From Rhizobiaceae bacterium (GTDB taxonomy: Bacteria; Pseudomonadota; Alphaproteobacteria; Rhizobiales; Rhizobiaceae): a stretch of 64,000 nt of DNA. Both the position numbers and the translations under genes were made by a program. Shown in pieces: positions 7,860-30,833 of the stretch. The notes under the pieces are model-generated. The model searched no databases. It saw only the letters and a list, made by a program, of their open reading frames with translations, and was not told the DNA's origin. How positions within the stretch are numbered: the stretch's first letter is position 1; each line of letters begins with the position of its first letter. Location: the NCBI GenBank assembly GCA_039969995.1, contig JBDVMU010000006.1, positions 5,618 to 69,617 on the forward strand, written 5' to 3'.

Positions 7860-7927
7860 TCGCAATTGTACAAAATGGGGTTCACCCGAAACGGGTTTAT
7901 GCTAAAAAGCGCTTCGGAGAAAAAGAC

Positions 7928-8149: not shown

Positions 8150-8233
8150 AATTCAATCTATCGCGCAACCATTGGGAGAATGCGACGACGATTAATGGCG
8201 TGAATTGATTGCTCATTCGGCAAGGAGACAAAT

Positions 8234-8664: not shown

Positions 8665-8685
8665 TTGCTTGTGGGTATGACAGGC

Positions 8686-9732: not shown

Positions 9733-9734
9733 TG

Positions 9735-11171: not shown

Positions 11172-11179
11172 TCGCCAAA

Positions 11180-11416
11180 TCAGCTATCTTCAGGATCCAG
11201 AAGGCGGTGCAGATGCACGACAAAATAACGCATATGGGCGTTGTCGACTGTCGACTGGGCTTTGGCTTTCCAGGCAGCCTTTGCAGATGCGAAGTCAGGG
11301 AAAATACCGACAATGTCGAGACCATCCAGATCACGGAAGGTCAAGCCGTCCAAGCTGTCCAGTTCACCGCCAAATACAAGATGCAGTAATTGTTTCTTTT
11401 CGTCAGATTTACTCAT
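11180..11416 (-). CDS. DUF4170 domain-containing protein
   Basis: The 78-aa ORF contains LLHLVFGGEL...HMRYFVVHLHRL. It sits in the usual position upstream of waaA. Confidence 0.75.
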   Translation of the reverse strand: MSKSDEKKQLLHLVFGGELDSLDGLTFRDLDGLDIVGIFPDFASAKAAWKAKAQSTVDNAHMRYFVVHLHRLLDPEDS

Positions 11417-11465
11417 GGGATTGCTCCGATATTTCCATGTCCGCGCAGTGCCCCAATGACCGCGC

Positions 11466-12278: not shown

Positions 12279-13608
12279 GAGTCATTCCTTCAATCATCAC
12301 CGTAGGTGCGTTGGTGCCATACCGTGTCTCAAGGTCATTTGCAGGTTCCATTGCCGCGAACATTTCCTTGAGGTTTCCGGCAATGGTAATTTCACTGACC
12401 GCAAAGGTGAGCTCGCCATTTTCAATCCAATAACCGCTGGCGCCGCGGGAGTAATCGCCGGTAATCATGTTGACCCCCTGTCCAATCAGCTCAGTGGCAT
12501 AGAAGCCGCTTTTTAATCCCTTGATCATTTCTTCAGGTGAGCGTTTTCCTGCCTGGAGTGTGACATTGGTGCTGCCGGGCGAAGTGCCGCTGCCAGCGCG
12601 GCTAGCACGACCGTTGGTTACAAGCCCCAGCTCGCGTGCCGTTGAGGAATCCAAAAGCCAGTGGTTCAGCACACCGTCTTCGGCCAATAGCAAGTCCTGC
12701 CCGGCAATCCCTTCGCCATCAAATGGACGTGACGACAAACCCCGCTTGATGTGGGGCTGGTCGATAATGGAGACGCCGGGGGCAAAAACCCGTTCACCCA
12801 TGCGATCTTTCAATAAAGACGTACCCCGGACAATGGCTGAACCATTGATGGCGCTGGTGAAGTGACCCACCAATCCCCGTGCGATTCTGGGGTCATAAAT
12901 TACTGCGGTCGTCTGGGTTTCCACCTGGCGCGGACTCACCCGCTTGGCAGCGCGCTGGCCAGCCTTTTCACCAATATCAGCGGCGGAGCGAAGATCGTTT
13001 AGGTGGTGCTGACTATCAAAGTCGTAATCGCGTTCCATGCTGCCATCGCTCTCAGCCACAACCGAGACCGAAAGGCTGAAACGGCTGGCTCGATAGGAAC
13101 CTACAAATCCGTCACTGGTTGCCAGGACCGAGCCGCCCAGTCCGCGACCAAAGGAAGCCCCCGATGATTTTGACACACCATCAACTTCCAATGCAGCAGC
13201 CTCACAGGCGAGTGCCGCGTCCCGCATCGTATCAAAATCCGGTTCAGAATCGTCAAACATGTCGAGGTCAGGGAAATCTCTTGCCAGGTGTTCGGCGTCG
13301 GCAAGACCTGCATATTTGTCCGCCGGAGAAACCTTTGCCATTGCAACAACGCGGGCCGCCAGTTCGGCCGGGTCACCACTCATATTGGCTGACACAGCCG
13401 CTGAACGATCGCCGACAAAGGCGCGCAAGGAAAAGGAATTATTTTCCGCACCTTCGGATTCTTCAATAGCACCATCGCGCACCTCGACACCGGTCGAACG
13501 GCTTGCTGCAACAATGGCATCGCAAGCATCTGCTCCAGCTCGTTTGGCGGCTTCCACCAGAGCGGCAGCTCTGTCTTGTAATTGGGTTAGGTCAAAAGAA
13601 TCAGACAA
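12265..13608 (-). CDS. TldD/PmbA family metalloprotease
   Basis: The 447-aa ORF shows family-typical composition. Its end overlaps the downstream gene by 14 nt. Confidence 0.88.
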   Translation of the reverse strand: MSDSFDLTQLQDRAAALVEAAKRAGADACDAIVAASRSTGVEVRDGAIEESEGAENNSFSLRAFVGDRSAAVSANMSGDPAELAARVVAMAKVSPADKYAGLADAEHLARDFPDLDMFDDSEPDFDTMRDAALACEAAALEVDGVSKSSGASFGRGLGGSVLATSDGFVGSYRASRFSLSVSVVAESDGSMERDYDFDSQHHLNDLRSAADIGEKAGQRAAKRVSPRQVETQTTAVIYDPRIARGLVGHFTSAINGSAIVRGTSLLKDRMGERVFAPGVSIIDQPHIKRGLSSRPFDGEGIAGQDLLLAEDGVLNHWLLDSSTARELGLVTNGRASRAGSGTSPGSTNVTLQAGKRSPEEMIKGLKSGFYATELIGQGVNMITGDYSRGASGYWIENGELTFAVSEITIAGNLKEMFAAMEPANDLETRYGTNAPTVMIEGMTLAGR

Positions 13609-13731
13609 AGCATATCCATCGGTCTCACTTGCCCCCGTTTACGCACTGCGCGGAATTGCTTCAAGGGTTTAGCTTCTATAGGTGCCAAATTCTTGCTACG
13701 AATGGCGCAAATCCAACCGGCTCGATTCTGT

Positions 13732-15528
13732 ATGGCAGACGGCTCCAATATCATCCTCGACGCCGTGGTCATTCTCGGAGGTGCGGCAATTGCCGCCCCG
13801 CTGTTTAAGCGCATCGGCTTGGGGACGGTTCTGGGTTACCTCGCGGTCGGCATCATTTTGGGGCCAATTCTGCAGTATATATCAGATGGCGAACAGATCC
13901 TGCACGTGGCCGAACTTGGTGTTGTACTTCTGCTGTTCATCGTCGGGCTGGAACTGAACCCGTCGCGACTGTGGGACATGCGGCGACAAATATTCGGGCT
14001 TGGTGCGTCGCAGGTTGTCATCAGCGGCATCATATTATCTGTACTGGCTTGGCAAATCTATTTCTCCTGGAATGCTGCCATCGTAGTGGGCTTTGGCCTG
14101 GCGCTCTCCTCCACAGCCTTTGCACTGCAATTGCTGGAAGATTCCAATGAAGACCGCCTGCCCCATGGCAAAAAGGCATTCAGCATTCTCTTATTCCAGG
14201 ATCTGGCAATTGCGCCACTGCTTGTCGCCGTCCCCTTGCTTGCTGCAGGAACCATGGAATTCTCTAGCGAAGGGCTTTGGCAACTCGGCATCGCCGCAGG
14301 CTGCCTGATCGCGTTGATTGCTGCTGGCCGCTATGCACTCAATCCCTTGTTCCACATTATCGCCGATACCGGAGCCCGCGAGGCGATGATCGCAGCGGCT
14401 CTTTTTGTGGTGATTGCCTCAGCCGTTTTGATGCAATTTGCCGGCCTTTCCATGGCTATGGGAGCCTTCGTTGCGGGTGTCATGTTGGCGGAGTCGAGTT
14501 ATCGCCACGAACTGGAAGCCGATATTGAGCCGTTTCGCGGAATTTTGCTTGGCCTGTTTTTTGTCGCGGTGGGTCTTGCGGTCAATCTCGAGATTGTCTG
14601 GAACAATCTGCAATGGATTGTGATAATTGTTCCTGCAGCTATGGCGATCAAAGGCATCGTCATATATGGGCTCTGCCGAATTTTTGAAACCAGTCACAAT
14701 GACTCCATTCGCGTGGCTTTCGTGTTACCGCAACATGGGGAATTTGCATTCGTGCTGTTTTCTGCAGCAGTGAGCGTCGCTCTTCTCACCCCGCAGGAAT
14801 CCTCCTTTCTGATAGCCTGCGTAACACTTTCAATGGCGCTGACGCCGATTTCGGTCAAACTGGGCTCGCTGCTCATACGTCACGACGACAATGAACATAT
14901 GGAAGAAGATTTTGAGGGCGCTGGTTCCAACGTCATGATGATTGGATTTTCTCGGCTCGGCCAGATTGCGGCGCAAACGCTGCTGGCTGGCGGGTGCGAT
15001 GTTACCGTCCTCGACAACAGTGCTGAGCGAATTCGTCAGGCTCAACGATTTGGTTTCCGCATCTATTTTGGCGATGGCACACGCCATGATGTCCTGCGCG
15101 CGGCGGGAATTGAAAAGGCCGAAATCATAGCGATTTGCACTCACTCACAAGAGATTACAGACCGCATTGTAGACTTGGTGTCGCGAGAATATCCCAAAGC
15201 CAAACTCTACGTGCGTTCTTATGACCGTGGGCATTCGCTTGATCTGTTACAACGCCCCGGTCTGTGGGAGATTCGCGAGACTTTCGAATCCGCCCTGGTC
15301 ATGGGACATGCCCTGTTGGAAGGCATTGGCATGTCCCACGAAGAGGCTACGGATATTGTCGAGGATGTACGTCGACGCGATGGCGAAAGACTAAAGCTGC
15401 AGCTGAAAGATGGCTGGCTCGCGGGGCGTGAAAACCTGCACTCTGCTCCTGTGCCAGAACCATTGGTTCAACCGCGCCATCAGGGCCAGGCGATCAGCTC
15501 TGAAACAGAAGAAATCCTGGAGGAATAA
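13732..15528 (+). CDS. Monovalent cation:proton antiporter-2 (CPA2) family, KefB/KefC-like K+ efflux protein with a C-terminal TrkA-N domain
   Basis: The ORF is 13693..15528. I chose the ATG at 13732 (MADGSNIILDAVVILGGAAIAAPLFKRIGLGTVLGYL). A Rossmann motif (MMIGFSRLG) lies in the C-terminal part. Confidence 0.9.
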   Translation: MADGSNIILDAVVILGGAAIAAPLFKRIGLGTVLGYLAVGIILGPILQYISDGEQILHVAELGVVLLLFIVGLELNPSRLWDMRRQIFGLGASQVVISGIILSVLAWQIYFSWNAAIVVGFGLALSSTAFALQLLEDSNEDRLPHGKKAFSILLFQDLAIAPLLVAVPLLAAGTMEFSSEGLWQLGIAAGCLIALIAAGRYALNPLFHIIADTGAREAMIAAALFVVIASAVLMQFAGLSMAMGAFVAGVMLAESSYRHELEADIEPFRGILLGLFFVAVGLAVNLEIVWNNLQWIVIIVPAAMAIKGIVIYGLCRIFETSHNDSIRVAFVLPQHGEFAFVLFSAAVSVALLTPQESSFLIACVTLSMALTPISVKLGSLLIRHDDNEHMEEDFEGAGSNVMMIGFSRLGQIAAQTLLAGGCDVTVLDNSAERIRQAQRFGFRIYFGDGTRHDVLRAAGIEKAEIIAICTHSQEITDRIVDLVSREYPKAKLYVRSYDRGHSLDLLQRPGLWEIRETFESALVMGHALLEGIGMSHEEATDIVEDVRRRDGERLKLQLKDGWLAGRENLHSAPVPEPLVQPRHQGQAISSETEEILEE

Positions 15529-17012
15529 TGGCCGCTGACAATAAAGCAGCCTTCACCACAGGCAGCACGATGCGTCACGTGGTTGTCATGACCGCGACCT
15601 CGTCAATTGGCCTGGTTTCGATCTTCTTCGTCGACATCATCAACTTGTTTTACATTTCGCTGCTCGGCCAACAGGAGCTCGCCGCAGCAATTGGGTACGC
15701 CGCGACGATTATGTTCTTTTCCGTCTCGGTCTGCATCGGAATTTCCATCGCGACTGCAGCTCTCGTTGGTCGGGCGCTGGGCGCTGAGGACAACGACCGC
15801 GCCCGCAGCCGTGCGACCTCATCGCTGGTCTATCTGTTGATTACAACAATCTTGCTGGCCTTGGCGCTCTACCCTGCATTGCCTCTACTGCTCAATTTGC
15901 TCGGTGCGCAGGGCGAAACCCTGCAACTGGCGCTAGGCTTTATGCAAATTGTTGTACCCTCTATTCCCTTGCTTGGCCTTGGTATGTGCCTGGGTGCTCT
16001 TCTGCGTGCGAAAGGAGATCCGAAACGCGCAATGTATGTCACCCTTTCGGGGGGCCTGGCAGCCCTGGTACTCGATCCAATTTTCATCTTTGGTTTTGAT
16101 ATGGGCATTTTCGGCGCGGCCGCCGCTACGGTTTGCGTTCGGCTGATCCTTGCGCTGGTAGGGCTTTGGGGAGTGATCAAGGTTCACAACATGTTGGGCC
16201 GTTTCAATGTCGCCGATGCCATATCTGACTTCCGTCCTTTCCTAACGATTGCCGTTCCCGCAATTGCAACCCAATTGGCCACTCCCGTCGGCAACGCTTA
16301 TGTCACCAGTTCTATCGCCGAATTTGGCGATGATGCGGTGGCAGGTTGGGCGATAATCGGCCGCATTCTGCCGGTTGCATTTGGGGTGATTTTTGCCCTG
16401 TCTGGATCGGTGGGGCCGATTCTCAGCCAGAACTATGGCGCACGCGAATGTGGACGGGTGAGTTCCACAATGCGGGATGCTTTGCTGTTCACACTGATTT
16501 ACTGCCTGGTCGTTTGGTTGTTGCTAGCGTTGGCCAATCCGTGGATCATTTCGGTGTTCGATGCGCAGGGTTCAGCGGCGAGCTTGGTCTACATTTTCTG
16601 TGTCTTTGTAGCGGGCTCCTATTTGTTCAACGGCGCCCTGTTTGTTGCCAACGCGGCTTTCAACAATCTCGGCTTTCCCATCTATGCCACCGTGTTCAAC
16701 TGGGGGCGTGCCACGTTGGGAATTATTCCATTCGTCATGGTGGGCAGCCAGTATGGTGCGGAAGGTGTGTTAATCGGTTGGGGGCTGGGAGCGGTTGTCT
16801 TTGGAATCGGTGGCGCCGCGATGGCGTTTCATCAAATCCGCAAATTGCCAGAACGTGAGGTTGAGAATGACTCCCTTGGGCGAACCAATCTGCCGCCCAC
16901 GGCCAATTCGCCATTTACGTCAGGCAAGGGAGCCAGTTTCGCGGTTGAGCCGATTCCGCGTGGCCCGGCGCTTTCAACCGAAGAAAAGTCTAAAAACTCC
17001 AAAAAACTGTAA
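15528..17012 (+). CDS. MATE family efflux transporter
   Basis: The 494-aa polytopic ORF starts in a TAATG overlap with the kef-like stop codon. Confidence 0.85.
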   Translation: MAADNKAAFTTGSTMRHVVVMTATSSIGLVSIFFVDIINLFYISLLGQQELAAAIGYAATIMFFSVSVCIGISIATAALVGRALGAEDNDRARSRATSSLVYLLITTILLALALYPALPLLLNLLGAQGETLQLALGFMQIVVPSIPLLGLGMCLGALLRAKGDPKRAMYVTLSGGLAALVLDPIFIFGFDMGIFGAAAATVCVRLILALVGLWGVIKVHNMLGRFNVADAISDFRPFLTIAVPAIATQLATPVGNAYVTSSIAEFGDDAVAGWAIIGRILPVAFGVIFALSGSVGPILSQNYGARECGRVSSTMRDALLFTLIYCLVVWLLLALANPWIISVFDAQGSAASLVYIFCVFVAGSYLFNGALFVANAAFNNLGFPIYATVFNWGRATLGIIPFVMVGSQYGAEGVLIGWGLGAVVFGIGGAAMAFHQIRKLPEREVENDSLGRTNLPPTANSPFTSGKGASFAVEPIPRGPALSTEEKSKNSKKL

Positions 17013-17084
17013 TCGCTTCACTGACCGGCTACGGTTATGCGCCGCCGGGGGTCACACGCCGCCGATGGGCCCTCGCCGCTGCGG

Positions 17085-17849
17085 CTAAAAGGTCGAACCT
17101 TTAAGCTTGTCGTAAATGCCTCGGCGCATCAGTCTTGTCGCCAGACCGGGCATCATTTTTCCAAACAGCGCAGCCAGATAGGCCTTGGTACCAGGGTAAT
17201 AGGTCTTGGAATTGCCCTTGGCTGCCCGAAGTATCAACTTGGCCATTTTTTGCGGGGCCATTCGTTTAGACGCCTTGGAGCCTTCGGGGGCATGCCTTTG
17301 GGCATGAGCGGTATTGATTGGCCCTGGAAACACAGTCAACACCCGCACCCGCTCCTTCTTGAAAGCCTGGGCAGCGCATCGAGCATATCCCGCCCGACCG
17401 TCTTTGGTGGCAGCGTAGACTGCTGCGCCCGGATAACCCATGGCGTGAGAAAGAGAAGAGATGAAGACAATCTTTGACTTCCGGCCCATCAGCTCTTTTC
17501 CGACCAATCGGGAAGCCAGATAAATTGGCGCGAACAAATTAACAGCAATCAACTTGTCATAAGCGGCCTCCGGAATTTCTTCGAATTTGCCGGTTGCGCT
17601 GATGCCAGCATTGAGGAACACAAGATCGAATGGGGGCTGCCCCTGGAAACTTGTCAAAAGCCGTTGGATTGAATCGGCGCTTTCCAGGTCGACGAAGCGT
17701 ATGGTGCAGGCACCACGATGTGCCATTGGCATGTTTTCCAGCGTATCGGTTTCCCGATCTGCAGCAACAACTTGGTGGCCTTGTCGCAACAACTCTTCAG
17801 TGAGCGCGCGCCCCAATCCATGGGCAGCTCCGGTAATCAGAACTCTCAT
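17085..17849 (-). CDS. SDR family oxidoreductase
   Basis: The product begins MRVLITGAAHGLGRAL. Its start overlaps the upstream SDR gene's stop in an ATGA sequence. Confidence 0.85.
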   Translation of the reverse strand: MRVLITGAAHGLGRALTEELLRQGHQVVAADRETDTLENMPMAHRGACTIRFVDLESADSIQRLLTSFQGQPPFDLVFLNAGISATGKFEEIPEAAYDKLIAVNLFAPIYLASRLVGKELMGRKSKIVFISSLSHAMGYPGAAVYAATKDGRAGYARCAAQAFKKERVRVLTVFPGPINTAHAQRHAPEGSKASKRMAPQKMAKLILRAAKGNSKTYYPGTKAYLAALFGKMMPGLATRLMRRGIYDKLKGSTF

Positions 17850-18589
17850 AATTGCCCCTTTCCAGCCCACGAAAAGCGGGCCATGAAACAGGCGAACCTG
17901 GTAATCATCTTGCGCCCGTCATTGCCACGGCGAATGGCAACCTGAATGGCTCGAGTGACCTTTTTTGGCGACATGAAGAAAAGACGAAGAATGGGGATAT
18001 TCAACCCAGCCTTGGCGTGCATTCGGGTCCTCGTTGGTCCTGGATGGACGATCATGACGTTTGCTCTGCCTCGCCACTCTTCGCGCAAGGAACGACATAG
18101 GCCATCAAGCGCAGCTTTTGTTGCAACATAAGTCGCGAACTGGCCCTGCGCCTTGCCGACAGAGGTAGACCCCACCATAACCAATCGCCCCTTGGCGGCG
18201 AACAACATTGGAGCAAGTGCCAACGTCAGATGAATTGGCGCGGCAATGTTGACTTTCAACTGTTCGCCAATCGTATTGATCGGTTCATCATAGGGAGGAC
18301 CAGTCCAAGCTGTTGCTCCATTGAGAATTGCAAGATCAAGTTGCGCCCAACCCATATCCTGCATGATCGCCAGTATGGTTGCAGCCGCATGGCGCGGATC
18401 GCTCTGATCGGCCATCACATAGGTGACGTTGGGAGATTTGAAGAATTCCTCATCATTGGCAATTCCTCGTCGGCCAGTTGCAAGCACGTGATGGCCCCGT
18501 CTTGCATAGGCGCGAGCAAGCAGCAGACCAATCCCGTCGGTTGCACCAGTTACCAAAACCGTATGGGGCCGAGCATTCTTCTTAGCCAT
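17846..18589 (-). CDS. SDR family NAD(P)-dependent oxidoreductase
   Basis: The product begins MAKKNARPHTVLVTGATDGIGLLLA from the ATG at 18589. It overlaps the ribF stop by 8 nt. Confidence 0.85.
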   Translation of the reverse strand: MAKKNARPHTVLVTGATDGIGLLLARAYARRGHHVLATGRRGIANDEEFFKSPNVTYVMADQSDPRHAAATILAIMQDMGWAQLDLAILNGATAWTGPPYDEPINTIGEQLKVNIAAPIHLTLALAPMLFAAKGRLVMVGSTSVGKAQGQFATYVATKAALDGLCRSLREEWRGRANVMIVHPGPTRTRMHAKAGLNIPILRLFFMSPKKVTRAIQVAIRRGNDGRKMITRFACFMARFSWAGKGQL

Positions 18590-19604
18590 TGGCTTGGACT
18601 CCGGCGCCAAAGTTCAGGGCAGCGTCCAATTCCGAAAGTGCATCAGAGTTGGCGAGACACTGTCGCGCCCGCAAGGAATCTTTATCCATCTGGATGACCA
18701 ACTCACCGGCAGACTCAAATTTCAGTTCGGGGCGCAAATAATCCAGCAATGTAACGGATATTTCTTCCCCATAGATATCTCGATCAAAGTCGAAAATGAA
18801 CGTTTCCAGCAGAGCCCGCCCATTATCGAAAGTTGGTCGACGTCCATAACTGGCAACGCCGTGATGAAGACTTCCATCAGCCGTTCGCAAGTGTACGGCG
18901 TAGATTCCGTGAGCCAGATGGCAGTTTTGCGCCAACTCAAGATTGGCGGTAGGATAGTTCAATGTACGCCCCAGCTGGGCCCCTTTGATCACCTTGCCGC
19001 TGACCAGCCAACGGTACCCCAGAAGTTGCGCAGCGGCGTCAACGTCTCCAGCTCCCAGCAGCCGGCGGATACGGCTCGATGAGATGATGTCGGGCCCATT
19101 GTCTTGGTTGTCGCCGCCTTCATCGGTTTTGGCGTCCACGATCGTCACACCAAAGCCAAATGTCTGGCCAGCTTGGCGAAGGAAATCGGGAGATCCCGCG
19201 CGGTTTTTGCCAAAATGAAAGTTGAAGCCCGACACAACATGAGAGGCTCGGGCGCGCCCCACCAACAATTCTTTGACGAAGTCTTCCGCGCTGGTACCAG
19301 CCAAATCGCGCGTGAACTCAAGAACCAGAAGCCCGTCGACGCCAAATGCCTGTAACACCCGGGCCTTCAACGGCTCTTCAGTCAAACGGAAGACAGGCGA
19401 ATCTGGATTGAACAGTGTTCTGGGGTGAGGTTCGAACGACAGCGCGAAGCATTGAACACCCTTATCGCGGGCAATCGCCAACGCTTGCTCCAGCACAACT
19501 TGATGGCCACGATGCACCCCATCAAAATTGCCAATTGCGATGACGGATCCGGCTTGATCATCCGCAACGGGCTTGTCCAACTGGTGGTGATAAAAAGAAC
19601 TCAT
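18582..19604 (-). CDS. ribF: Bifunctional riboflavin kinase / FAD synthetase
   Basis: The 340-aa ORF has IAIGNFDGVHRGHQ at the N-terminus and a C-terminal riboflavin kinase domain. Confidence 0.92.
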   Translation of the reverse strand: MSSFYHHQLDKPVADDQAGSVIAIGNFDGVHRGHQVVLEQALAIARDKGVQCFALSFEPHPRTLFNPDSPVFRLTEEPLKARVLQAFGVDGLLVLEFTRDLAGTSAEDFVKELLVGRARASHVVSGFNFHFGKNRAGSPDFLRQAGQTFGFGVTIVDAKTDEGGDNQDNGPDIISSSRIRRLLGAGDVDAAAQLLGYRWLVSGKVIKGAQLGRTLNYPTANLELAQNCHLAHGIYAVHLRTADGSLHHGVASYGRRPTFDNGRALLETFIFDFDRDIYGEEISVTLLDYLRPELKFESAGELVIQMDKDSLRARQCLANSDALSELDAALNFGAGVQANG

Positions 19605-19608
19605 CTAG

Positions 19609-20469
19609 CTATGCGTTCCAACGCAAACGAGGCATCCAGACACTCGGATCTACCTTTTGCCGTACCAAAAACTGTTCCAAAGCAGCTTCATCCGGGTTCT
19701 CAGCAGGGCCATATTCATTGCTATGTATTCCTGCAGAAATATACAACAAATCAAACCCGTTCGACAAAGCACCGGCCACATCCGTCGGCATGCCATCACC
19801 GATGCAAATCACCTCGGCCTGTTCGGTGGCGCTGCCATTAAGATCGCGCAATCGCTCCATTGCCAGTGTATATATCGGAGCATGCGGCTTGCCTGCAACC
19901 AGCGTTCGACCTCCTAGTTCCTGATAGAGTTGGGCCAAGGACCCCGCGCAATAGATCAACCGATCGCCTCGCTCGACAATGAGATCAGGATTGGCGCAGA
20001 TGAATGGAACATCACGGTCGGCAAGCTTTTGCAGGCGTTGCCGATAGTGGTCCGGGGTCTCCACCTCGTCTTCAAACAGGCCGGTACAAACCACCGCCTG
20101 ACAATTATCTTCGTCAACAAATTGCTTGCCAAGCCCATCGAACAAAGGAATGTCGCGCGCCGGGCCCAAGTGAAACAATGGGCCTTCGGCTTCTGCAATT
20201 AACGTCCGTGTTACATCTCCAGAGGTAACAATGTCGTCAAAAGCTGAGCGATCGACCCGCAATTCATCCAACTGCGCAAGCACACCTTGGTTGGGCCGGG
20301 GCGAATTGGTCAGCAAAACCACCTGGCCGCCGTTCTCGCGATACTTAATCAAAGCCTGTTCGGCTTCGCGATATACAGATTGGCCGTTATGCAGCACTCC
20401 CCAAACATCGCACAGAATGGCGCGATAATCTGAGGCTATCGCGCTCAGGCCTGATATGCGTCTCGACAT
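19609..20469 (-). CDS. HAD-superfamily class IIA hydrolase (TIGR01459-like)
   Basis: The 286-aa ORF has ILCDVWGVLHNG and LLTNSPR motifs. Confidence 0.85.
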   Translation of the reverse strand: MSRRISGLSAIASDYRAILCDVWGVLHNGQSVYREAEQALIKYRENGGQVVLLTNSPRPNQGVLAQLDELRVDRSAFDDIVTSGDVTRTLIAEAEGPLFHLGPARDIPLFDGLGKQFVDEDNCQAVVCTGLFEDEVETPDHYRQRLQKLADRDVPFICANPDLIVERGDRLIYCAGSLAQLYQELGGRTLVAGKPHAPIYTLAMERLRDLNGSATEQAEVICIGDGMPTDVAGALSNGFDLLYISAGIHSNEYGPAENPDEAALEQFLVRQKVDPSVWMPRLRWNA

Positions 20470-20681
20470 GAAGGAAACCCTGCTTACGGCTACAAAACAT
20501 TCGGGTAAATTGATCCGGCAGGGTCGTCAAGTTTGAACTGCTCACCCTTTGCATCAATCGTCTGAGCGTGTATTGATTCGACATGTGATTGCCGGAAGTT
20601 TTTCAGGCACGATTATAAGGCATGTCGGCGGCTGGGCAGACGACGGCACTTTGGGGACACGTTTGGTGAAAGCGGGACGCG

Positions 20682-21986
20682 ATGAGTGCAGTTAAGCAGG
20701 TGGGCAAATGGCTTAAACGCCTGTTTATCCTAGCATGCATGCTGGCACTGTGCTTCAGCGCCGTCATTTATCTTTCCCGCAACGATCTTATGAGCACCGG
20801 ACAGTCGTTGACCATCGGGCTTATCATCATATTCGCCATTATCATCATCCATCGCCAAAGGATGATTTCCCGCGACATTCGCAACATGAAATCCCAATCA
20901 GCAGCGCTGATACACTACGAAGACGACATCAAAAGGCGGCTTGAAGCCTTAACCCTGCGTGTCAACGGGCTTGCTGACAATTCTAATCCCAATGGCCTGG
21001 GACAGGTCGGAGAAGACGGAACGATTGCACCAATGTTCCAGGCCGATCATTCTGAAGCTATTGCCATTTTGAACAGCCGCATCAATTCACTCCAAGATGA
21101 TTCAAATCCCTCAATGGATCGCATCCGCCCCGATGTTTACCCTCTTGATGACCCGCAATCGAACGAAGAAGACCTTGCAGCGCCAACCCGAGGAAAAAAA
21201 TCAGGCAAAAAAAGGAAAATCGAGCTGAATGAGAAAAGTCTCAACATGCATTTACAGCCGATTATCGAACTACCATCACGACGCCCTGCCTATTTTGATG
21301 CATTTATGCGGCTGAACTCCGCCGATGGCGAATTCGTGGACCAGTCCGAGTTCCGCAAACTGGCGGAAGCTGCCGGGCTGATGCCGACGATCGACAAAAA
21401 AATAGTGTTCAGCGCTGTTCGCATGGTTCGTAAATTGAATCTGCTCAAAAAGAAGGCGGGGGTGTTCTGCCCCATTTCACCGGTTTCGCTGGGCAACGCT
21501 CACAATTTCCGCGAGATTTTCAGCTTTCTTCAGGCAAATGCCAGCCTACGAGGTTCGCTGGTGATAGAAATCACCCAACGGGAGTTGGCAGGCTTGAGTC
21601 AGGACCAGCACAACCGCTTGTCCAATTTGTCAGACATGGACATCGCATTGTCACTCAACAACGTTCAGGATCTCAATTTGGATGCCGAGCACCTGGCTCG
21701 GTGCGGTTTCAAATTCGTCAAAGTTCCAGCTTCCATCTTGCTGCATGCAAATTTACAGGACAATCAAAAGGGCATCGAGCCCGAGAGCTTGGCAGAAATA
21801 CTTGAGGTAGAAGGCATCCGGTTAATTGCCACTGAGGTCGAACGTGACCGGGATGCGGTTAACCTGATCGATATGGAATTGCCGTTGGCACAGGGTCTGC
21901 TGTTTGCACCACCACGACCGGTAAAGGCCGAACTCTTGATCAACGCCGAGCCTGAAAAATCAGAACAGCTTCAGTCGACTGCATAG
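20682..21986 (+). CDS. Membrane-anchored protein with a degenerate EAL domain
   Basis: The 434-aa ORF has two N-terminal TM helices, a coiled or low-complexity linker and a C-terminal EAL-fold region (LQPIIELPSRRPAYFDAFMRL...IEITQ...ATEVE...QGLLFAPP). Catalytic motifs are substituted. Confidence 0.75.
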   Translation: MSAVKQVGKWLKRLFILACMLALCFSAVIYLSRNDLMSTGQSLTIGLIIIFAIIIIHRQRMISRDIRNMKSQSAALIHYEDDIKRRLEALTLRVNGLADNSNPNGLGQVGEDGTIAPMFQADHSEAIAILNSRINSLQDDSNPSMDRIRPDVYPLDDPQSNEEDLAAPTRGKKSGKKRKIELNEKSLNMHLQPIIELPSRRPAYFDAFMRLNSADGEFVDQSEFRKLAEAAGLMPTIDKKIVFSAVRMVRKLNLLKKKAGVFCPISPVSLGNAHNFREIFSFLQANASLRGSLVIEITQRELAGLSQDQHNRLSNLSDMDIALSLNNVQDLNLDAEHLARCGFKFVKVPASILLHANLQDNQKGIEPESLAEILEVEGIRLIATEVERDRDAVNLIDMELPLAQGLLFAPPRPVKAELLINAEPEKSEQLQSTA

Positions 21987-26681: not shown

Positions 26682-27650
26682 ATGATAAAACCGACCATTC
26701 GCCAGCTTGAATATGCCGTTGCCGTGGCTGATACCGGCCAGTTCGGCCTTGCCGCCAAGCGTCTCAACGTTTCTCAACCGAGCCTTTCAACGCAAATTGC
26801 CGAGCTTGAATTCGCCCTTGATCGGCGCATTTTCAACCGTGGCCGCAAAGGCGCATCGCCGACGGCGGGGGGCCATGAGATCATCCGCCGCGCCCGCCTT
26901 GTGCTGCGTGAAATGGAAGACATGGTAGCGCTTAGCCGTAATGAGGGCTTGTTTGGCGGCCGCTTACGGTTGGGCGTCCTGCCCTCCATCGGCCCTTATC
27001 TGCTGCCCGAAGTTGTCCGCAAACTGCACGCTGAAAACCCCGAATTGCGGCTGGTGCTGAAAGAGGAAAGCACCTTGCGGCTGGAGGATGATCTGCGCAG
27101 CGGCCGTCTCGACATGATCATCTCCACCCCCGACGATCATTTGGGCACCCACCAGATCCCGTTATTCACCGAGCGTCTTTGGGCCGCCTTTGCCAGCGAC
27201 GATCCGCTGGCCAGGAGCAAAAGCCCGCTCAGCCTTGAAGACCTGGCCGGTCGCACCCTGCTGACGCTGGACCGCAGTCACCGCCTGTCGCGCATTGTCC
27301 ATCGCATGGCCCAGGACAGCGGCGCCACTGTGCTCGACGATTATCAGGGCACCAGCATGGACGCCATCCGCCTGATGGCCGCCTCCGGTTCTGGCATCGC
27401 CATTCTGCCGCATATTTATGCAGCAACAGAAGCCCGTCGCGGCTCCGATGTCGCCCTGCGCCCGTTCAAAAAGGGCACAGCTTTACGTCATTTGGCGCTG
27501 ATCCAACCCGGCGGCGGCGGCGGCGAGGCTGGCGGCGGCGGCGAGGCTGGCGGCGGCAGCGAGGCTGGCGGCGGCGGCGAGCCCCGCTATGGCACCGACC
27601 TGCTGGCCAATGCGCTGAAGCTGGAAGCCGAAAAACTCATGCGCGCTTAG
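26682..27650 (+). CDS. LysR family transcriptional regulator (OxyR-like N-terminus)
   Basis: The 322-aa ORF has the HTH segment IRQLEYAVAVADTGQFGLAAKRLNVSQPSLSTQIAELE. It is divergent from nhaA. The C-terminal part carries an inserted G/E/A repeat. Confidence 0.9.
   Translation: MIKPTIRQLEYAVAVADTGQFGLAAKRLNVSQPSLSTQIAELEFALDRRIFNRGRKGASPTAGGHEIIRRARLVLREMEDMVALSRNEGLFGGRLRLGVLPSIGPYLLPEVVRKLHAENPELRLVLKEESTLRLEDDLRSGRLDMIISTPDDHLGTHQIPLFTERLWAAFASDDPLARSKSPLSLEDLAGRTLLTLDRSHRLSRIVHRMAQDSGATVLDDYQGTSMDAIRLMAASGSGIAILPHIYAATEARRGSDVALRPFKKGTALRHLALIQPGGGGGEAGGGGEAGGGSEAGGGGEPRYGTDLLANALKLEAEKLMRA
27510..27581 (+). repeat. In-frame 18-nt tandem repeat (GGCGGCGGCGGCGAGGCT, about 4 copies) inside the LysR gene
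   Basis: It encodes GGGGGEA GGGGEA GGGSEA GGGGE. Read directly from the sequence. Confidence 0.9.
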
Positions 27651-27928
27651 CTTCGGCGGCGAGCGGAGTAGAGGAGGTGATGAAAACGAGGGAACAAATA
27701 TCTAATGTGGGGAGAAGGAGTCAAAATATACCGAACATTGATCAATCCAATGGCCGATCAGAACTAAAAGTGACAGGTGTCGATTCGATGCTTTCGGCCC
27801 ACTGCGGTCATTGGAGTCATCGTGCCGCGGACCATCCAAATTTCACAAAGCCGACATTCGCTCGACTGGTTTCAGAAATTGAGCAGAGGTCTGCACAGCG
27901 GACAAAGCACCAGTTTGCCATCGATGCG

Positions 27929-29543
27929 CCAATGACCGCTTTGACCAGCTTCCTACATCTACACGGAGCTCAATACCGAACTCGAACGAATCAGAGCATT
28001 TTGCGCGAGAAATTGCATCAACTCGCTGTACGCCCACATATTTTCCTCTGCGTCAGAAAATGGGAGTATCATCTCCGATTGAGGATCATCAAATCCGTTC
28101 TTTGTATGCACAATGCGGCATCGGATATCATAGAGAAGCTCAGCGATATCAGGACGGTGATCGTGATCTTTTCGAACGATGTTTACGGTTTTGTCCGTAA
28201 TGCCCTTTTGTTTTTTGCCCAAGATTTCTGAGATTTCCTCATTATCCTCAAAAAACTGCTTTACGTCGTCCAAGGACAAAACCTCCAACACCGTCACTTT
28301 CATTTGCTCACGCTCGCTGGAGCCGATACGTCCACTACCGGAAATTGTTGCAACCAGCTTGGTAAGGTCAGATTCTCGATCCACCCTAAAATTCGGGTGT
28401 TTAAGAATTTTTCGGGCGCCTCTTACTGCTTCGAGCTTGGCGAAGTTTGGGAAGTAATACTCAACCACTTGATAATAAGCCAAAAATTGTAAGAGTGGCA
28501 TTCCGCGAGCGCTTTTCGCATACCAATACAACGAGATCGGCGCTTTGTCGTACTCGAAAGCGGGAAACTGTATGCTACTCGGTTCATCTGAGTTGAAGCC
28601 TCTGGGCCTAACTGGGCCGCGCCTTCGGAGCGTCTTTCGAAGCGCCAAGGCAACTCTCTTTTCAATGTCTAACTGGAGAAAAAGCGAGTTGGAGATCGTT
28701 TCCAGTGCGTTTAGTGCGGAAGTGTACTTTCGTTCGCCGCCAAGAGATATTTTCAAACTTAGTCCTCGGCGCATCCGAGGACGTAAAGCTAGTGCTGCGA
28801 GCTCTTCTGTACCTTCTGATATCTCCACCGAAACCCCATCCGACCGTTCAGCCCGCAGAACAAATTTGTCTTCTTCTTCGCTGCCGCCTTCTTCATCACC
28901 CATTGAAATTTGAGTAAAACCTAATCGTCTTTCCAACATGGACGAACCGTAAGGCTCTCTAGATATAATGGCAGCTTCAATTTCTCCTTTTTTTAGGTCC
29001 GCGATTGCTTCGTAATCGGCCAAAAATGAAAACGACTCAAATTCAATTGAAAGTAATAGAGCTGCCCTTTCTGGGGAGGAAACGCTGATGCGGCGTCCTT
29101 CCTTGCCTGCAGGAAAAAAAACATAAGAATATACACTTATGTCATCTTCATAGTCGACTTCACGGGTTTGAGTTTCAAGCCCTGCGTCCTTTGCTCTTTT
29201 GATAACCGCAGCGGTTTCGTCCGAAATATCCATTGCCCCTCTCAATTAATTATGTCGATTTTTTTAAACGCAGCGCAAATGTACTGAGCAAGTTCGCATA
29301 TCTTCTAGTATCAGAACTGGTAAGAAACAAAGGTATATTTTATCCAGTCGAGTATAATGCACTTGTGCTGAGCAAACTTCAAGCGCTTCGACAATTAGTA
29401 CCTTGAGCTGCCGTTCAAACAAGGTGAAGTATGGGTTGATATCGGGCTCGATGCCGCCGTTGACCGATTTACAGCTCGTCTGTTTTCGACTTCCGCTTTG
29501 CGGAATGTCGATGAGTCCGTCGAAAATGGACCAATGACCGCTT
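27929..29543. mobile_element. Putative horizontally acquired cassette bounded by 13-bp perfect direct repeats (CCAATGACCGCTT)
   Basis: The direct repeats lie at 27929-27941 and 29531-29543. The interior is visibly AT-rich (about 40% GC by eye) against GC-rich flanks. There is a single convincing ORF and no recombinase. Confidence 0.5.
27959..29233 (-). CDS. Hypothetical protein with a C-terminal HEPN-like domain (R-x4-H motif)
   Basis: The ATG at 29233 is preceded by GAGAGGGG and gives 424 aa. The C-terminal half contains LLQFLAYYQVVEYYFP and LLYDIRCRIVHTK, with RCRIVH at 28106-28123. The N-terminal 200 aa or so has no recognisable family. Confidence 0.7.
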   Translation of the reverse strand: MDISDETAAVIKRAKDAGLETQTREVDYEDDISVYSYVFFPAGKEGRRISVSSPERAALLLSIEFESFSFLADYEAIADLKKGEIEAAIISREPYGSSMLERRLGFTQISMGDEEGGSEEEDKFVLRAERSDGVSVEISEGTEELAALALRPRMRRGLSLKISLGGERKYTSALNALETISNSLFLQLDIEKRVALALRKTLRRRGPVRPRGFNSDEPSSIQFPAFEYDKAPISLYWYAKSARGMPLLQFLAYYQVVEYYFPNFAKLEAVRGARKILKHPNFRVDRESDLTKLVATISGSGRIGSSEREQMKVTVLEVLSLDDVKQFFEDNEEISEILGKKQKGITDKTVNIVRKDHDHRPDIAELLYDIRCRIVHTKNGFDDPQSEMILPFSDAEENMWAYSELMQFLAQNALIRSSSVLSSV

Positions 29544-30026: not shown

Positions 30027-30329
30027 ATGCAAAGCGACTATTATTTCTGGCGCGAACTGTTCGACACATACCAATCCCTGCGCCCATGGCTGCAACTTGC
30101 CTGGCTGATCACCCTCGCCGCACTGGTATTGGCCGCCGGGCGCGGGTTTGGCCGCATGGTCACGCTGATCATCCACCGACCCAAATCAACCCGGCAAAAT
30201 CACCCACCCGCGCAAGGTGAACACGGTGTTCCGTATTTGGAACATATCGACGAAGCGCCCCGCTTAACGGCATACGGCGGCGGCGGCGGCGGCGATGACG
30301 ATGACGATGACGGCGGTCGCCGCGCGTAG
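30027..30329 (+). CDS. Small hypothetical single-pass membrane protein with a poly-Gly/poly-Asp tail
   Basis: The ATG at 30027 lies 6 nt after GGGAGA. The product is MQSDYYFWRELFDTYQSLRPWLQLAWLITLAALVLAAG... and ends GGGGGGDDDDDDGGRRA. Confidence 0.45.
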   Translation: MQSDYYFWRELFDTYQSLRPWLQLAWLITLAALVLAAGRGFGRMVTLIIHRPKSTRQNHPPAQGEHGVPYLEHIDEAPRLTAYGGGGGGDDDDDDGGRRA

Positions 30330-30380: not shown

Positions 30381-30635
30381 TGTGGGAGGTGGGTTTTGTT
30401 TGTTTTGCGCTCACGCAGGCAGCTGCGCCGCCGCTCCGCGGGGGCGGCGCGTAAGCGCCGGACGGCTCTTCGCCGTCTTGCACGGGCAATGAGAAGGATT
30501 ACTTGTAGCGGCAACAAACACATTTCCATGGGCCCGTGCCAAGGCCGCGAAGAGCGGCCCGGACCGGTCAGGCCCGCCCCCGCGGTGCGAAGGGGCGTAG
30601 CCCCGACAGCGTGAGCGCAAACCAAACCTCCCGCA
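30381..30635. repeat. Long imperfect nested inverted repeat (hairpin of about 250 bp), either MITE-like or a structured RNA
   Basis: Perfect complementary blocks are 30404-30416/30609-30621 (13 bp), 30436-30447/30574-30585 (12 bp), 30465-30473/30547-30555 (9 bp) and 30480-30487/30532-30539 (8 bp). The outer pair TGTGGGAGG/CCTCCCGCA also matches at 8 of 9 positions. The loop is 30488-30531. Confidence 0.7.
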
Positions 30636-30765
30636 GACATCACCCCTACCTGTAACACTCCCGCGTAAAACTCTCCCCTACCCGTCTCACTCCCAGCACT
30701 CTCCCAAGGCCGGCGCCCGCTCGCCGCCGCCGCCGCCGCCGCTGCCTAAAAATTCATCGCCAAAC

Positions 30766-30806: not shown

Positions 30807-30833
30807 TTAGCACTCACATCTATCGAGTGCTAA
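30807..30833 (+). promoter_or_regulatory. CIRCE operator (HrcA binding site)
   Basis: It is a perfect TTAGCACTC-N9-GAGTGCTAA match, about 80 nt upstream of groES. Confidence 0.92.

What the first reader, a model, noticed from the sequence alone, without database searches (positions are those of the whole stretch)
27959..29233. Orphan 424-aa protein with a HEPN-like R-x4-H C-terminal domain: candidate single-gene defence or abortive-infection module
The C-terminal 200 aa or so are helical. They begin with a conserved-looking PLLQFLAYYQVVEYYFP helix and end with LLYDIRCRIVHTK. The motif R-C-R-I-V-H (28106-28123) fits the Rx4-6H catalytic signature of HEPN RNases, which are found in Abi systems, toxin-antitoxin systems and CRISPR ancillary nucleases. 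The N-terminal 200 aa or so (with an acidic EEGGSEEED patch) match nothing I recognise and could be a sensor domain. Foreign composition, direct-repeat boundaries and the absence of any partner gene fit a horizontally mobile stand-alone immunity gene. The overall layout is reminiscent of proteins annotated as MauJ-like or ApeA-like HEPN, but I cannot confirm that.
Basis: partly seen in the sequence, partly recalled or inferred. Interest (0 to 1): 0.75.

Follow-up and report, generated by a model that had tools for sequence, protein, structure and literature searches.

The report
Stand-alone HEPN-like candidate phage-defence gene
This gene encodes a two-domain protein from a large, widespread, uncharacterised family whose tail carries an invariant RNase-type R-x4-H motif related to the Dazbog defence protein DzbB, so it is a credible but untested single-gene phage-defence candidate and not an orphan.

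Summary
The ORF is real: 27959-29233, minus strand, 424 aa.

It is not an orphan. An exhaustive HMM search finds 2,106 cluster representatives, and the best 150 share the same ~420-450-aa two-domain layout. The motif Y-x-[ILV]-R-C-x-[IV]-V-H-x-K is present in 150/150 unbiased representatives.

The C-terminal domain matches the PADLOC DzbB (Dazbog) profile in 36/36 members and Pfam MauJ in 36/36. Sister branches in Vibrio/Halomonas and Bacillales (hhalign 99.4% and 98.5%) carry the canonical HEPN form R-N-x3-H.

AlphaFold places the motif at the end of a helix running into a loop. An invariant Glu sits in the second helix, and there is a large insert between helices 2 and 3. All of this fits the published HEPN description.

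Foldseek finds no HEPN or any other structural neighbour, and no Pfam HEPN model is hit. The fold is therefore unconfirmed.

No conserved partner gene appears across 80 loci. Adjacent genes are enriched for defence genes (170 vs 13 PADLOC models). Close copies sit in unrelated contexts as a ~1.5-kb low-GC cassette.

Most likely: a stand-alone sensor-plus-RNase abortive-infection protein. This is a new variant of a known kind, and it is untested.

The parts
27959..29233 (-). Complete gene for a 424-aa protein (stop codon 27959-27961, ATG at 29231-29233). An in-frame TTG at 29245 would add 4 residues.
   Evidence: ORF list. Identical to the NCBI MAG protein ABJH63_01075. Homologues start at the ATG. 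A GAGG-type ribosome-binding site lies 5-6 nt upstream.
28634..29233 (-). N-terminal alpha/beta domain, residues 1-200. It begins with an alpha-beta-beta-beta-alpha unit (residues 5-61) and contains the invariant Glu86 and the near-invariant R13, G43, F65, E66 and I85. It ends with the long conserved helix 170-192 (SNSLFxQxD). Proposed role: sensor or regulatory domain.
   Evidence: AF2 model, pLDDT 81.8. Conservation. Homologous to the N-terminal domain of the R-N sister family, with Glu86 aligned to that family's invariant Glu74. Only weak Foldseek similarity to dsRBD-like folds, E 1.4-2.
28868..28906 (-). Acidic loop (residues 110-122, includes EEGGSEEED). Non-conserved and predicted disordered.
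   Evidence: pLDDT below 50. Variable, gapped alignment columns.
28580..28627 (-). Basic, low-confidence interdomain linker (residues 203-218, RRRGPVRPRG...).
   Evidence: pLDDT below 50. Arg-rich but variable columns.
27962..28576 (-). C-terminal all-helical MauJ/DzbB-type domain (residues 220-424), a putative split HEPN. H1 is 230-241 (LYWY). H2 is 246-259 (PLLQFLAYYQVVEY, with invariant E258). A ~100-residue helical insert follows (261-338, with invariant E307). H3 is 360-375, then a loop, and H4 is 400-416.
   Evidence: AF2 domain model, pLDDT 89.5, pTM 0.86. PADLOC DzbB E=1.5e-8, residues 245-386, hit by 36/36 members. Pfam MauJ. hhalign to sister branches at 99.4% and 98.5%.
28448..28498 (-). 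Conserved helix-2 segment PLLQFLAYYQVVEYYFP (residues 246-262). P246, L247, L248, A252, Y254, Q255 and E258 are invariant. E258 is the candidate HEPN helix-2 acidic residue.
   Evidence: Translation. Invariant columns. The equivalent Glu is invariant in both sister branches.
28100..28132 (-). Signature motif YDIRCRIVHTK (residues 368-378). The R371-x4-H376 core is at 28106-28123. It sits at the C-terminal end of helix 360-375, running into the following loop.
   Evidence: Translation. R, C, V, H and K are invariant in 116 sequences. R and H are present in 150/150 unbiased representatives, with Cys after the R in 149 and Asn in 1. Position from AF2.
29234..29417 (-). Upstream non-coding region that travels with the gene, presumably holding its own promoter and 5' UTR.
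   Evidence: Nucleotide similarity of 79.5% to the copy in an unrelated context (L002/L016) runs from 27938 to 29417. No consensus sigma-70 hit lies upstream of the ATG in the simple scan.
27924..27941 (.). Left copy of the flanking direct repeat (AAGCGGTCATTGG core), 18 nt past the stop codon and at the edge of cassette homology.
   Evidence: (D13).
29526..29543 (.). Right copy of the flanking direct repeat, ~300 nt upstream of the ATG, where GC content returns to the host level.
   Evidence: (D13).

Best explanation
The gene encodes a self-contained, horizontally mobile immunity-type protein with two parts: an N-terminal alpha/beta sensor or regulatory domain, and a C-terminal MauJ/DzbB-type helical domain.

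The C-terminal domain is most likely a highly diverged, split HEPN ribonuclease. Its catalytic centre would be R371 and H376, assisted by E258, E307 and K378.

By analogy with characterised single-protein HEPN defences (ApeA, DARNA, PrrC/RloC), the protein is proposed to stay inactive until an infection cue is sensed by the N-terminal domain. The HEPN domains of two or more subunits would then form a composite active site. That site would cut cellular RNA (tRNA anticodon loops are the precedent) and stop growth before the phage completes its cycle.

Shown here:
- the gene and its two-domain layout;
- the invariance of the motif;
- homology to DzbB and MauJ;
- the solitary, mobile, defence-associated genomic behaviour.

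Inferred, not shown: the HEPN fold, RNase activity, oligomerisation, the trigger, and any phage phenotype.
For: **Motif**
- R371 and H376 are invariant in 36, 116 and 150 sequences.
- The motif context Y-x-I-R-x-[KR]-I-V-H-[TS]-K resembles, from memory, the usual hydrophobic pattern around HEPN R-N-x3-H motifs.
- The two sister branches read RIYKTRNSIVHSK and RIYKTRNALIHSK, and one member of this branch has R-N.
- The sister branches are homologous to this family by hhalign: 99.4% (E 5e-22, 357 columns) and 98.5% (E 3e-15, 254 columns).

**Structure prediction**
- AF2 places the motif at the end of a helix running into a loop. There is an H1-H2 hairpin before it, one long helix after it, and a large insert between H2 and H3.
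- An invariant Glu sits in helix 2.
- This arrangement matches the HEPN description in PMC3710099.

**Link to a known defence system**
- The PADLOC DzbB model is hit by 36/36 members, best E 5.6e-15.
- Dazbog is an experimentally shown abortive-infection system.

**Third-party labels**
- UniRef labels six superfamily members 'Apea-like HEPN'.
- A CARF-HEPNnew PADLOC model is weakly hit by 3/36 members.

**Genomic behaviour**
- No conserved neighbour in 80 loci.
- 150 adjacent ORFs hit 170 PADLOC models at E<=1e-5, including PDC-S46 at 5e-248, bSEFIR, type IIG R-M, PD-T4-6, MADS, Old, GajA and MkoA. 150 distal ORFs hit 13 models, best 3e-16.
- Individual contexts include Mrr+HipA+RhuM (Xanthomonas), PIN+NACHT (Cylindrospermum), a C5-methylase/Vsr pair with prophage genes nearby (Cereibacter), an integrative element (Roseobacter), a plasmid copy five genes from an AbiEii toxin gene (Yersinia), and superintegron-type cassettes (Vibrio).
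- The distribution is sparse and patchy: 138 pattern-detected relatives in 185,579 species genomes, spread across many phyla.
- The gene lies in a low-GC ~1.5-kb cassette found in unrelated contexts at 75-86% protein identity.
Against: - Foldseek with two confident models (full length, and the domain alone at pLDDT 89.5) finds no HEPN and no other significant structural neighbour in the PDB or BFVD. The best E is ~1 and TM ~0.2.
- Sequence and profile searches of the PDB return nothing.
- No Pfam HEPN-clan family and no PADLOC ApeA model is hit. The only HEPN_Apea signal is 9.3 bits, E=2, in a sister-branch protein.
- The residue after the Arg is an invariant Cys rather than N/D/H.
- In Millman et al. 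the dzbB deletion could not be transformed, 'possibly due to toxicity'. That hints DzbB may restrain DzbA rather than being the toxin.
- Many alphaproteobacterial copies, including this one (between a LysR gene and groES/EL), sit among housekeeping genes.
- The PADLOC enrichment counts models, not proteins, and many of those models are redundant.
- No experiment exists for any member.
Confidence: 0.55

Rival explanations
1. The C-terminal MauJ/DzbB-type domain is not a HEPN RNase. Instead it is a distinct helical fold with another activity, such as a different nuclease chemistry using Cys372/His376 or a nucleotide- or NAD-directed enzyme. The protein would still act as a stand-alone defence or toxin module.
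For: - No structural neighbour was found for a pLDDT-89.5 model.
- No HEPN profile is hit.
- Cys372 is invariant next to the Arg and four residues from the invariant His.
- E258, E307, D358 and K378 are additional invariant residues.
Against: - Sister branches replace the Cys with the canonical HEPN Asn while keeping R, H and K. The Cys is therefore not essential to the superfamily's chemistry.
- The position of the motif at a helix end and the helix-2 Glu fit HEPN.
- Diverged, split HEPN domains are hard to detect: for ApeA the authors reported its closest structural homologue, HepT, via GTalign.
Confidence: 0.17
2. The protein is a regulator, neutraliser or other non-toxic component rather than an effector. 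DzbB may play such a role in Dazbog. Alternatively it is a selfish addiction or stress-response element with no role in phage defence.
For: - The dzbB deletion could not be transformed, which is the pattern seen for antitoxin deletions in the same experiment.
- Many copies, including this one, are isolated among housekeeping genes.
- No phage-encoded copies and no phenotype data exist.
Against: - A regulator would need a partner, and none is conserved in 80 loci.
- A strictly invariant R/H/K/E constellation across three deeply diverged branches points to catalysis.
- Neighbouring genes are enriched for defence genes.
Confidence: 0.15
3. The protein is a housekeeping accessory of amine or C1 metabolism, as the 'methylamine utilization protein MauJ' label given to relatives would suggest.
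For: - The Pfam MauJ profile matches all members.
- PGAP names Bacillales relatives MauJ.
Against: - No mau genes lie near any copy examined.
- The family has a patchy cross-phylum distribution.
- The cassette has foreign GC content.
- Copies occur in plasmid, integron-type and integrative-element settings.
- The name is transferred from a family of unknown function.
Confidence: 0.03

Closest known systems
DzbB, the second protein of the two-gene Dazbog abortive-infection system (Millman et al. 2022; PADLOC PDLC03836)
   Same: The C-terminal domain matches the C-terminal third to half of the DzbB profile. The window protein matches positions 203-315 of 341 at E 1.5e-8. All 36 family members match (best 5.6e-15), and sister-branch proteins reach 4.5e-17. 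The link to phage defence comes from this match.
   Different: - There is no DzbA (DUF262) partner in the window, and no neighbour family recurs in more than 7 of the 80 loci.
- The N-terminal ~200 residues do not match the DzbB profile.
- Dazbog senses phage cytosine methylation through its DUF262 protein. This protein would need its own sensor.
- The biochemical role of DzbB itself is unknown.
ApeA, a single-protein HEPN defence (Gao et al. 2020; structures in bioRxiv 10.64898/2026.01.26.701840)
   Same: - It is a stand-alone protein with a non-catalytic N-terminal part and a C-terminal split HEPN-type domain carrying R-x4-H.
- ApeA is an abortive-infection tRNA anticodon nuclease.
- UniRef labels six superfamily members 'Apea-like HEPN'.
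- The 2013 HEPN survey lists a beta-rich 'ApeA-NTD1' fused to HEPN(Apea).
   Different: - ApeA is ~580 aa, predominantly helical and has three domains. This protein is 424 aa with a beta-rich N-terminal domain.
- Neither the PADLOC ApeA model nor Pfam HEPN_Apea is hit.
- The residue after the Arg is Cys.
- Oligomeric state and ligand are unknown.
Pfam PF17419 MauJ (family of unknown function named after the mauJ gene of methylamine-utilisation clusters)
   Same: Every family member matches the profile. In several the match spans profile positions 3-114 of 116, covering the whole C-terminal domain. Bacillales relatives pass the gathering threshold and are annotated MauJ.
   Different: - The window protein scores 22.9 bits, below the 28-bit cutoff, and only over its helix 1-2.
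- The domain here carries a ~70-100-residue insert relative to the 116-position profile.
- There is no methylamine-utilisation context.
- Whether PF17419 belongs to Pfam's HEPN clan could not be checked.
DARNA and PrrC/RloC-type HEPN anticodon nucleases
   Same: These are single polypeptides that join a sensor to a HEPN RNase. They are activated only on infection and stop growth by tRNA cleavage.
   Different: - DARNA has its HEPN domain at the N-terminus with an all-helical ssDNA-sensing C-terminal domain.
- PrrC/RloC carry ABC-ATPase sensors and sit in R-M operons.
- No sequence similarity to either was detected.

Membership tests
HEPN superfamily (Anantharaman et al. 2013, PMC3710099) | Conserved R-x4-6-H motif | tested here: met
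   R371 and H376 are invariant in 36, 116 and 150 sequences. They are also invariant in both sister branches.
HEPN superfamily (Anantharaman et al. 2013, PMC3710099) | [quoted passage not shown] | tested here: met
   In the AF2 secondary structure, the motif (371-376) ends helix 360-375. A loop follows (376-393), then helix 400-416. Five helices (261-338) are inserted after the 230-259 hairpin.
HEPN superfamily (Anantharaman et al. 2013, PMC3710099) | Polar residue (mostly N, D or H) immediately after the conserved Arg | tested here: not met
   The residue is Cys in 149/150 representatives of this branch and Asn in 1/150. The sister branches have Asn, nearly invariant in one and invariant in the other.
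HEPN superfamily (Anantharaman et al. 2013, PMC3710099) | Conserved acidic residue in helix 2 near the motif (often E-x3-[KR]) | tested here: inconclusive
   E258 is invariant in helix 246-259, and the equivalent Glu is invariant in both sister branches. There is no K/R at +4, and its spatial proximity to the motif could not be measured.
HEPN superfamily (Anantharaman et al. 2013, PMC3710099) | Four-helix up-down bundle superposable on solved HEPN structures | tested here: inconclusive
HEPN superfamily (Anantharaman et al. 2013, PMC3710099) | Profile match to an established HEPN family model | tested here: not met
   No Pfam HEPN-clan hit appears for 36 members even at E<=10. HEPN_Apea scores 9.3 bits, E=2, in one sister-branch protein only. 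CARF_HEPNnew is hit by 3/36, best E 0.0035. HHpred was not available.
HEPN superfamily (Anantharaman et al. 2013, PMC3710099) | Metal-independent RNase activity | not testable with these tools
   Needs biochemistry.
ApeA defence family | Match to the ApeA / HEPN_Apea profile, with the ~580-aa N-Mid-HEPN all-alpha architecture | tested here: not met
   No PADLOC ApeA hit and no PF18739 hit. The protein is 424 aa with a beta-rich N-terminal domain, whereas ApeA is ~580 aa and predominantly helical. The UniRef 'Apea-like HEPN' names are third-party labels.
Dazbog system (DzbA + DzbB) | DzbB profile match | tested here: inconclusive
   The match is significant but partial: E 1.5e-8, profile positions 203-315 of 341, in 36/36 members. 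The N-terminal two thirds of the profile are not matched.
Dazbog system (DzbA + DzbB) | Adjacent DUF262-containing DzbA gene | tested here: not met
   In the window the neighbours are a LysR gene and a small membrane ORF. No DUF262 appears in 12 annotated loci. No recurrent neighbour appears in 80 loci.
Pfam PF17419 MauJ | Score at or above the gathering threshold (28 bits) | tested here: not met
   The window protein scores 22.9 bits. Some family members pass, for example P0039 at 33.4 bits. All 36 match at a permissive E<=10 cutoff (34/36 at E<=0.01), best 9.1e-8.
Type II HEPN-MNT toxin-antitoxin | Adjacent minimal nucleotidyltransferase antitoxin gene | tested here: not met
   No adjacent small gene is conserved.

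The most novel reading that the evidence does not exclude
The MauJ/DzbB-type domain may be a previously unrecognised catalytic fold, or a HEPN derivative so remodelled that it works differently. In this 'R-C' branch the invariant Cys372 beside the catalytic Arg could act as a thiol switch or as a catalytic or covalent residue. The N-terminal domain, with its invariant Glu86 conserved across branches, would bind an infection-derived small molecule or nucleic acid. If so, a 2,000-cluster family together with Dazbog's DzbB would share an uncharacterised effector mechanism.
Probability: 0.15. Interest if true: 0.75.

Novelty: new variant of a known kind. Interest (0 to 1): 0.55.

Why it matters
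If the inference holds, three things follow.
- It adds a very large family to the catalogue of single-protein, abortive-infection-type defences. The family has more than 2,000 clusters at 50% identity, spans most bacterial phyla and includes one haloarchaeal MAG. At present its members are annotated only as 'hypothetical' or, misleadingly, as 'MauJ'.
- It gives a concrete biochemical hypothesis for the uncharacterised DzbB component of Dazbog.
- It offers a natural experiment on HEPN chemistry. One branch has R-C-x3-H and its sister branches have R-N-x3-H, on the same two-domain scaffold.

It also illustrates how a ~1.5-kb gene-plus-promoter cassette can spread between marine alphaproteobacteria into housekeeping neighbourhoods without any recognisable mobility gene.

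Tried and rejected
**Searches that found nothing**
- NCBIfam: no hit.
- PDB sequence and profile searches with the protein, the family profile and the sister-family profile: no hit at E<=10.
- Foldseek against the PDB (full-length model and domain model) and against BFVD: nothing significant.
- Phage genomes by tblastn: no copy.
- tRNA genes and Rfam families near the gene: none. There is therefore no tRNA-linked integration site.
- Literature on PF17419, on MauJ as a HEPN, and on DzbB biochemistry: nothing found.
- The supplement of the 2013 HEPN survey is not held, so I could not check whether this family equals its 'ApeA/BMEI1217' family. No Brucella locus appeared among the 80 loci kept from the genome scan.

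**Checks that came out negative**
- A consensus promoter upstream of the ATG and a terminator downstream: none in the simple scan.
- The 13-nt flanking repeat as an element-intrinsic end: it is absent from all other loci.
- A HepT/MNT seed in the fetched loci, wanted for building a bona fide HEPN profile for hhalign: none convincing.

**Readings rejected**
- 'Orphan'.
- 'Member of ApeA'.
- 'Dazbog system'.
- 'Methylamine metabolism' (no mau context anywhere).
Full report
**1. The observation**

The ORF exists as described. It runs 27959..29245 on the minus strand and gives 428 aa from a TTG. The ATG at 29233 gives 424 aa and is preceded by GAGAGGGG. The 424-aa product is identical to a 'hypothetical protein' of a Rhizobiaceae MAG, GCA_039961215.1, on a 576-kb contig. 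Homologues begin at that Met.

- RCRIVH is encoded at 28106-28123, within YDIRCRIVHTK.
- PLLQFLAYYQVVEYYFP is encoded at 28448-28498.
- GC falls to 0.40-0.52 over ~27660-29500, against 0.55-0.70 on either side.
- The neighbours are a LysR gene with nhaA on one side, and a 100-aa membrane ORF with groES/groEL on the other. There is no partner gene.

**2. Not an orphan**

A word-indexed search found 244 relatives, nearly all 417-470 aa and aligned over 90-100% of the query. An exhaustive HMMER search of 1.84 billion cluster representatives found 2,106 hits at E<=1e-3 and 864 at E<=1e-30. The best 150 share the same full-length layout.

A scan of one genome per species found 138 relatives in 185,579 genomes. 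They are spread over Proteobacteria, Acidobacteria, Bacteroidota, Chloroflexi, Firmicutes, Actinobacteria, Planctomycetes and one haloarchaeal MAG. That is a sparse, patchy distribution.

**3. Anatomy**

AlphaFold2 with a 36-sequence alignment gave pLDDT 81.8 and pTM 0.78.

- Residues 1-200 form an alpha/beta domain. It starts with an alpha-beta-beta-beta-alpha unit and ends in a long conserved helix (170-192).
So are residues 203-218, a basic linker.
- Residues 220-424, modelled alone with 116 sequences, gave pLDDT 89.5 and pTM 0.86 and are all-helical. The layout is a hairpin (230-241, 246-259), five inserted helices (261-338), helix 360-375, a loop, and helix 400-416.

Invariant residues in 36-116 sequences are L235, Y236, Y238, P246-L248, A252, Y254, Q255, E258, F282, E307, Y368, R371, C372, V375, H376, K378 and P391. 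W237, D358 and I374 are invariant in the 36-sequence alignment and at least 90% conserved among the 116. In the N-terminal domain, E86 is invariant in the 36-sequence alignment and at least 90% conserved among the 116.

In the 150 unbiased representatives the motif has R and H in 150/150. The residue after the R is Cys in 149 and Asn in 1.

**4. What the C-terminal domain is related to**

- Pfam gives only MauJ (PF17419). The window protein scores 22.9 bits, below the 28-bit cutoff.
- All 36 tested members match MauJ at a permissive E<=10 cutoff (34/36 at E<=0.01). In several the 116-position profile aligns end to end across ~180 residues. The domain is therefore a MauJ-type domain with a large insert.
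- PADLOC gives DzbB, the second protein of the Dazbog abortive-infection system. The window protein scores E 1.5e-8, and 36/36 members match, best 5.6e-15.

A permissive tblastn against plasmids produced bridging proteins.

- A solitary 460-aa Priestia plasmid protein lies next to a CHAT-protease gene, and PGAP annotates it 'MauJ'. It aligns to the family's C-terminal domain at 96.8% probability (E 2e-10) and reads RIYKTRNALIHSK at the motif.
- A 427-aa cyanobacterial plasmid protein reads RIYKTRNSIVHSK.

Both hit MauJ and DzbB; the cyanobacterial protein gives the strongest DzbB match at 4.5e-17. Each one seeds a large branch.

- The 'R-N' branch (Vibrio, Francisella, Halomonas, Marinobacter, cyanobacteria; ~428 aa) is homologous to this family over both domains: hhalign 99.4%, E 5e-22, 357 columns. 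Glu86 aligns to that branch's invariant Glu74.
- The Bacillales branch is homologous from the last N-terminal strand and helix through the whole C-terminal domain: 98.5%, E 3e-15.

In all three branches R, H, the following K, the helix-2 Glu and the Glu equivalent to E307 are invariant. UniRef calls six members across the three branches 'Apea-like HEPN domain-containing protein'.

**5. Is it HEPN?**

The 2013 survey defines HEPN by five features:

- a four-helix up-down bundle with frequent inserts between helices 2 and 3;
- Rx4-6H at the end of helix 3 running into the loop;
- a polar residue after the R;
- an acidic residue in helix 2;
- RNase activity.

The motif, its predicted position, the insert and the helix-2 Glu fit. 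The polar residue is replaced by Cys in this branch but is Asn in the sister branches.

Against this:

- Neither Foldseek search found any HEPN or other significant neighbour.
- PDB sequence and profile searches were empty.
- No Pfam HEPN model or PADLOC ApeA model is hit.
- The only HEPN-labelled signals are a weak CARF-HEPNnew hit in 3/36 members and 9.3 bits to HEPN_Apea in one sister protein.

For the split HEPN domain of ApeA, the authors identified its closest structural homologue, HepT, with GTalign. The Foldseek negative is therefore weak evidence. I rate HEPN as likely (about two in three) but unproven.

**6. Genomic behaviour**

Close relatives sit in unrelated places:

| Relative | Context |
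|---|---|
| This copy | between a LysR gene and groES |
| 84%-identical copy | between recR and an oxidase gene |
| 75%-identical Roseobacter copy | in an element with integrase-like, methylase, primase and D5 genes |

Nucleotide similarity between the window and the recR-context copy runs from 27938 to 29417 only. That is the ORF plus ~184 bp upstream and ~21 bp downstream.

In the window, a 13-nt exact repeat (18 nt at 16/18) brackets the low-GC segment. It occurs nowhere else in the 64 kb and is not found at other copies. This fits a target duplication, or chance.

I called ORFs in 80 loci and clustered them. The most recurrent neighbour family occurs in only 7 loci, at varying positions. 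The gene is genuinely solitary.

The 150 ORFs at positions ±1 and ±2 hit 170 PADLOC models at E<=1e-5. Near-full-length matches include PDC-S46, bSEFIR, PDC-S30, type IIG R-M, PD-T4-6, MADS, Old, GajA and MkoA. The 150 ORFs at least 6.5 kb away hit 13 models, best 3e-16. The count is of models, many of them redundant, so it shows enrichment but not a rate.

Individual contexts:

- Mrr/HipA/Phd/RhuM/RecD-like genes (Xanthomonas);
- PIN and NACHT genes (Cylindrospermum);
- caspase-like and dCTP-deaminase genes (Ralstonia);
- a C5-methylase/Vsr pair, with prophage genes nearby (Cereibacter);
- a plasmid copy with an AbiEii toxin gene five genes upstream (Yersinia);
- superintegron-type cassettes (Vibrio, R-N branch);
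- YoeB/Phd and HipA modules (Halomonas).

Several alphaproteobacterial copies are lone insertions among housekeeping genes.

**7. Mechanism proposed**

The protein is proposed to be a stand-alone sensor-effector. The N-terminal domain would hold the C-terminal nuclease inactive until an infection signal arrives. HEPN domains would then pair to form the composite R/H site and cleave RNA, arresting growth. The precedents are ApeA (tRNA anticodon cleavage, activated by deoxydinucleotides) and DARNA (activated by SSB-bound ssDNA).

One caution: in Millman et al. the dzbB deletion could not be transformed, 'possibly due to toxicity'. That result would fit DzbB restraining DzbA, and it keeps a non-toxin role alive as a rival.

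**8. Verdict**

- The protein is not a member of ApeA, Dazbog or HEPN-MNT as defined.
- It belongs to a large uncharacterised superfamily sharing the MauJ/DzbB-type domain.
- Novelty: a new variant of a known kind.

Noticed in passing
window 30807-30833: An exact CIRCE operator (TTAGCACTC-N9-GAGTGCTAA) lies ~45 nt upstream of groES (30878). It is the expected HrcA heat-shock control site. None is expected by chance.
   Followed up: yes
window 30390-30635: A ~246-nt GC-rich near-perfect palindrome lies between the small ORF and groES. It folds into one long hairpin (RNA MFE -150.6 kcal/mol, z = -9.3 against shuffles). It is flanked by (CGG)7 at 30275-30295 and the complementary (GCC)7 at 30721-30741. 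There is no Rfam match at gathering score. It could be a MITE- or REP-like intergenic element. Its origin and function are not established.
   Followed up: partly
window 27509-27591 (within the LysR gene 26682-27650): 18-nt tandem repeats encode a Gly/Glu/Ala-rich tail (GGGGEAGGGGEAGGGSEAGGGGE) near the C-terminus of the LysR-type regulator. This is unusual for the family and may vary in length.
   Followed up: no
window 30027-30329 (+): A 100-aa ORF, called as a gene in the NCBI record, has a hydrophobic helix followed by a poly-Gly/poly-Asp tail (GGGGGGDDDDDDGG). It has no Pfam hit and lies between the cassette and groES.
   Followed up: no
L099/L100 (Vibrio cholerae contigs), gene at 2791-4077 / 2584-3870: The R-N sister-branch gene lies among DUF645 and Phd/ParE cassettes typical of the V. 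cholerae superintegron. A 308-aa unannotated ORF sits directly upstream in both contigs. I did not test whether that ORF is a partner or a separate cassette.
   Followed up: no
L096 1716-3098 (Priestia megaterium plasmid pB1.3) and one search hits: PGAP annotates Bacillales members of the superfamily as 'methylamine utilization protein MauJ'. In the one copy whose flanks were examined (the Priestia plasmid gene, beside a CHAT-protease gene) no mau genes are visible. The name looks like a misleading transfer from Pfam PF17419.
   Followed up: partly
L004/L019 ~7600-21000 (Roseobacter insulae YSTF-M11): The 75%-identical copy lies inside what looks like an integrative element downstream of yacG. 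The element carries a DUF6538 integrase-like gene, SRAP, an N6/N4 DNA methylase, a DnaG-type primase, a dATP/dGTP pyrophosphohydrolase and a D5_N helicase gene.
   Followed up: no
window residues 5-61 of the protein (nt ~29051-29221): The first ~60 residues have alpha-beta-beta-beta-alpha topology. They gave several weak Foldseek matches to double-stranded-RNA-binding domains (DHX9, Loquacious, MLE, DRB4; E 1.4-2.0, probability 0.2-0.4). This hints at nucleic-acid binding but is not significant.
   Followed up: partly
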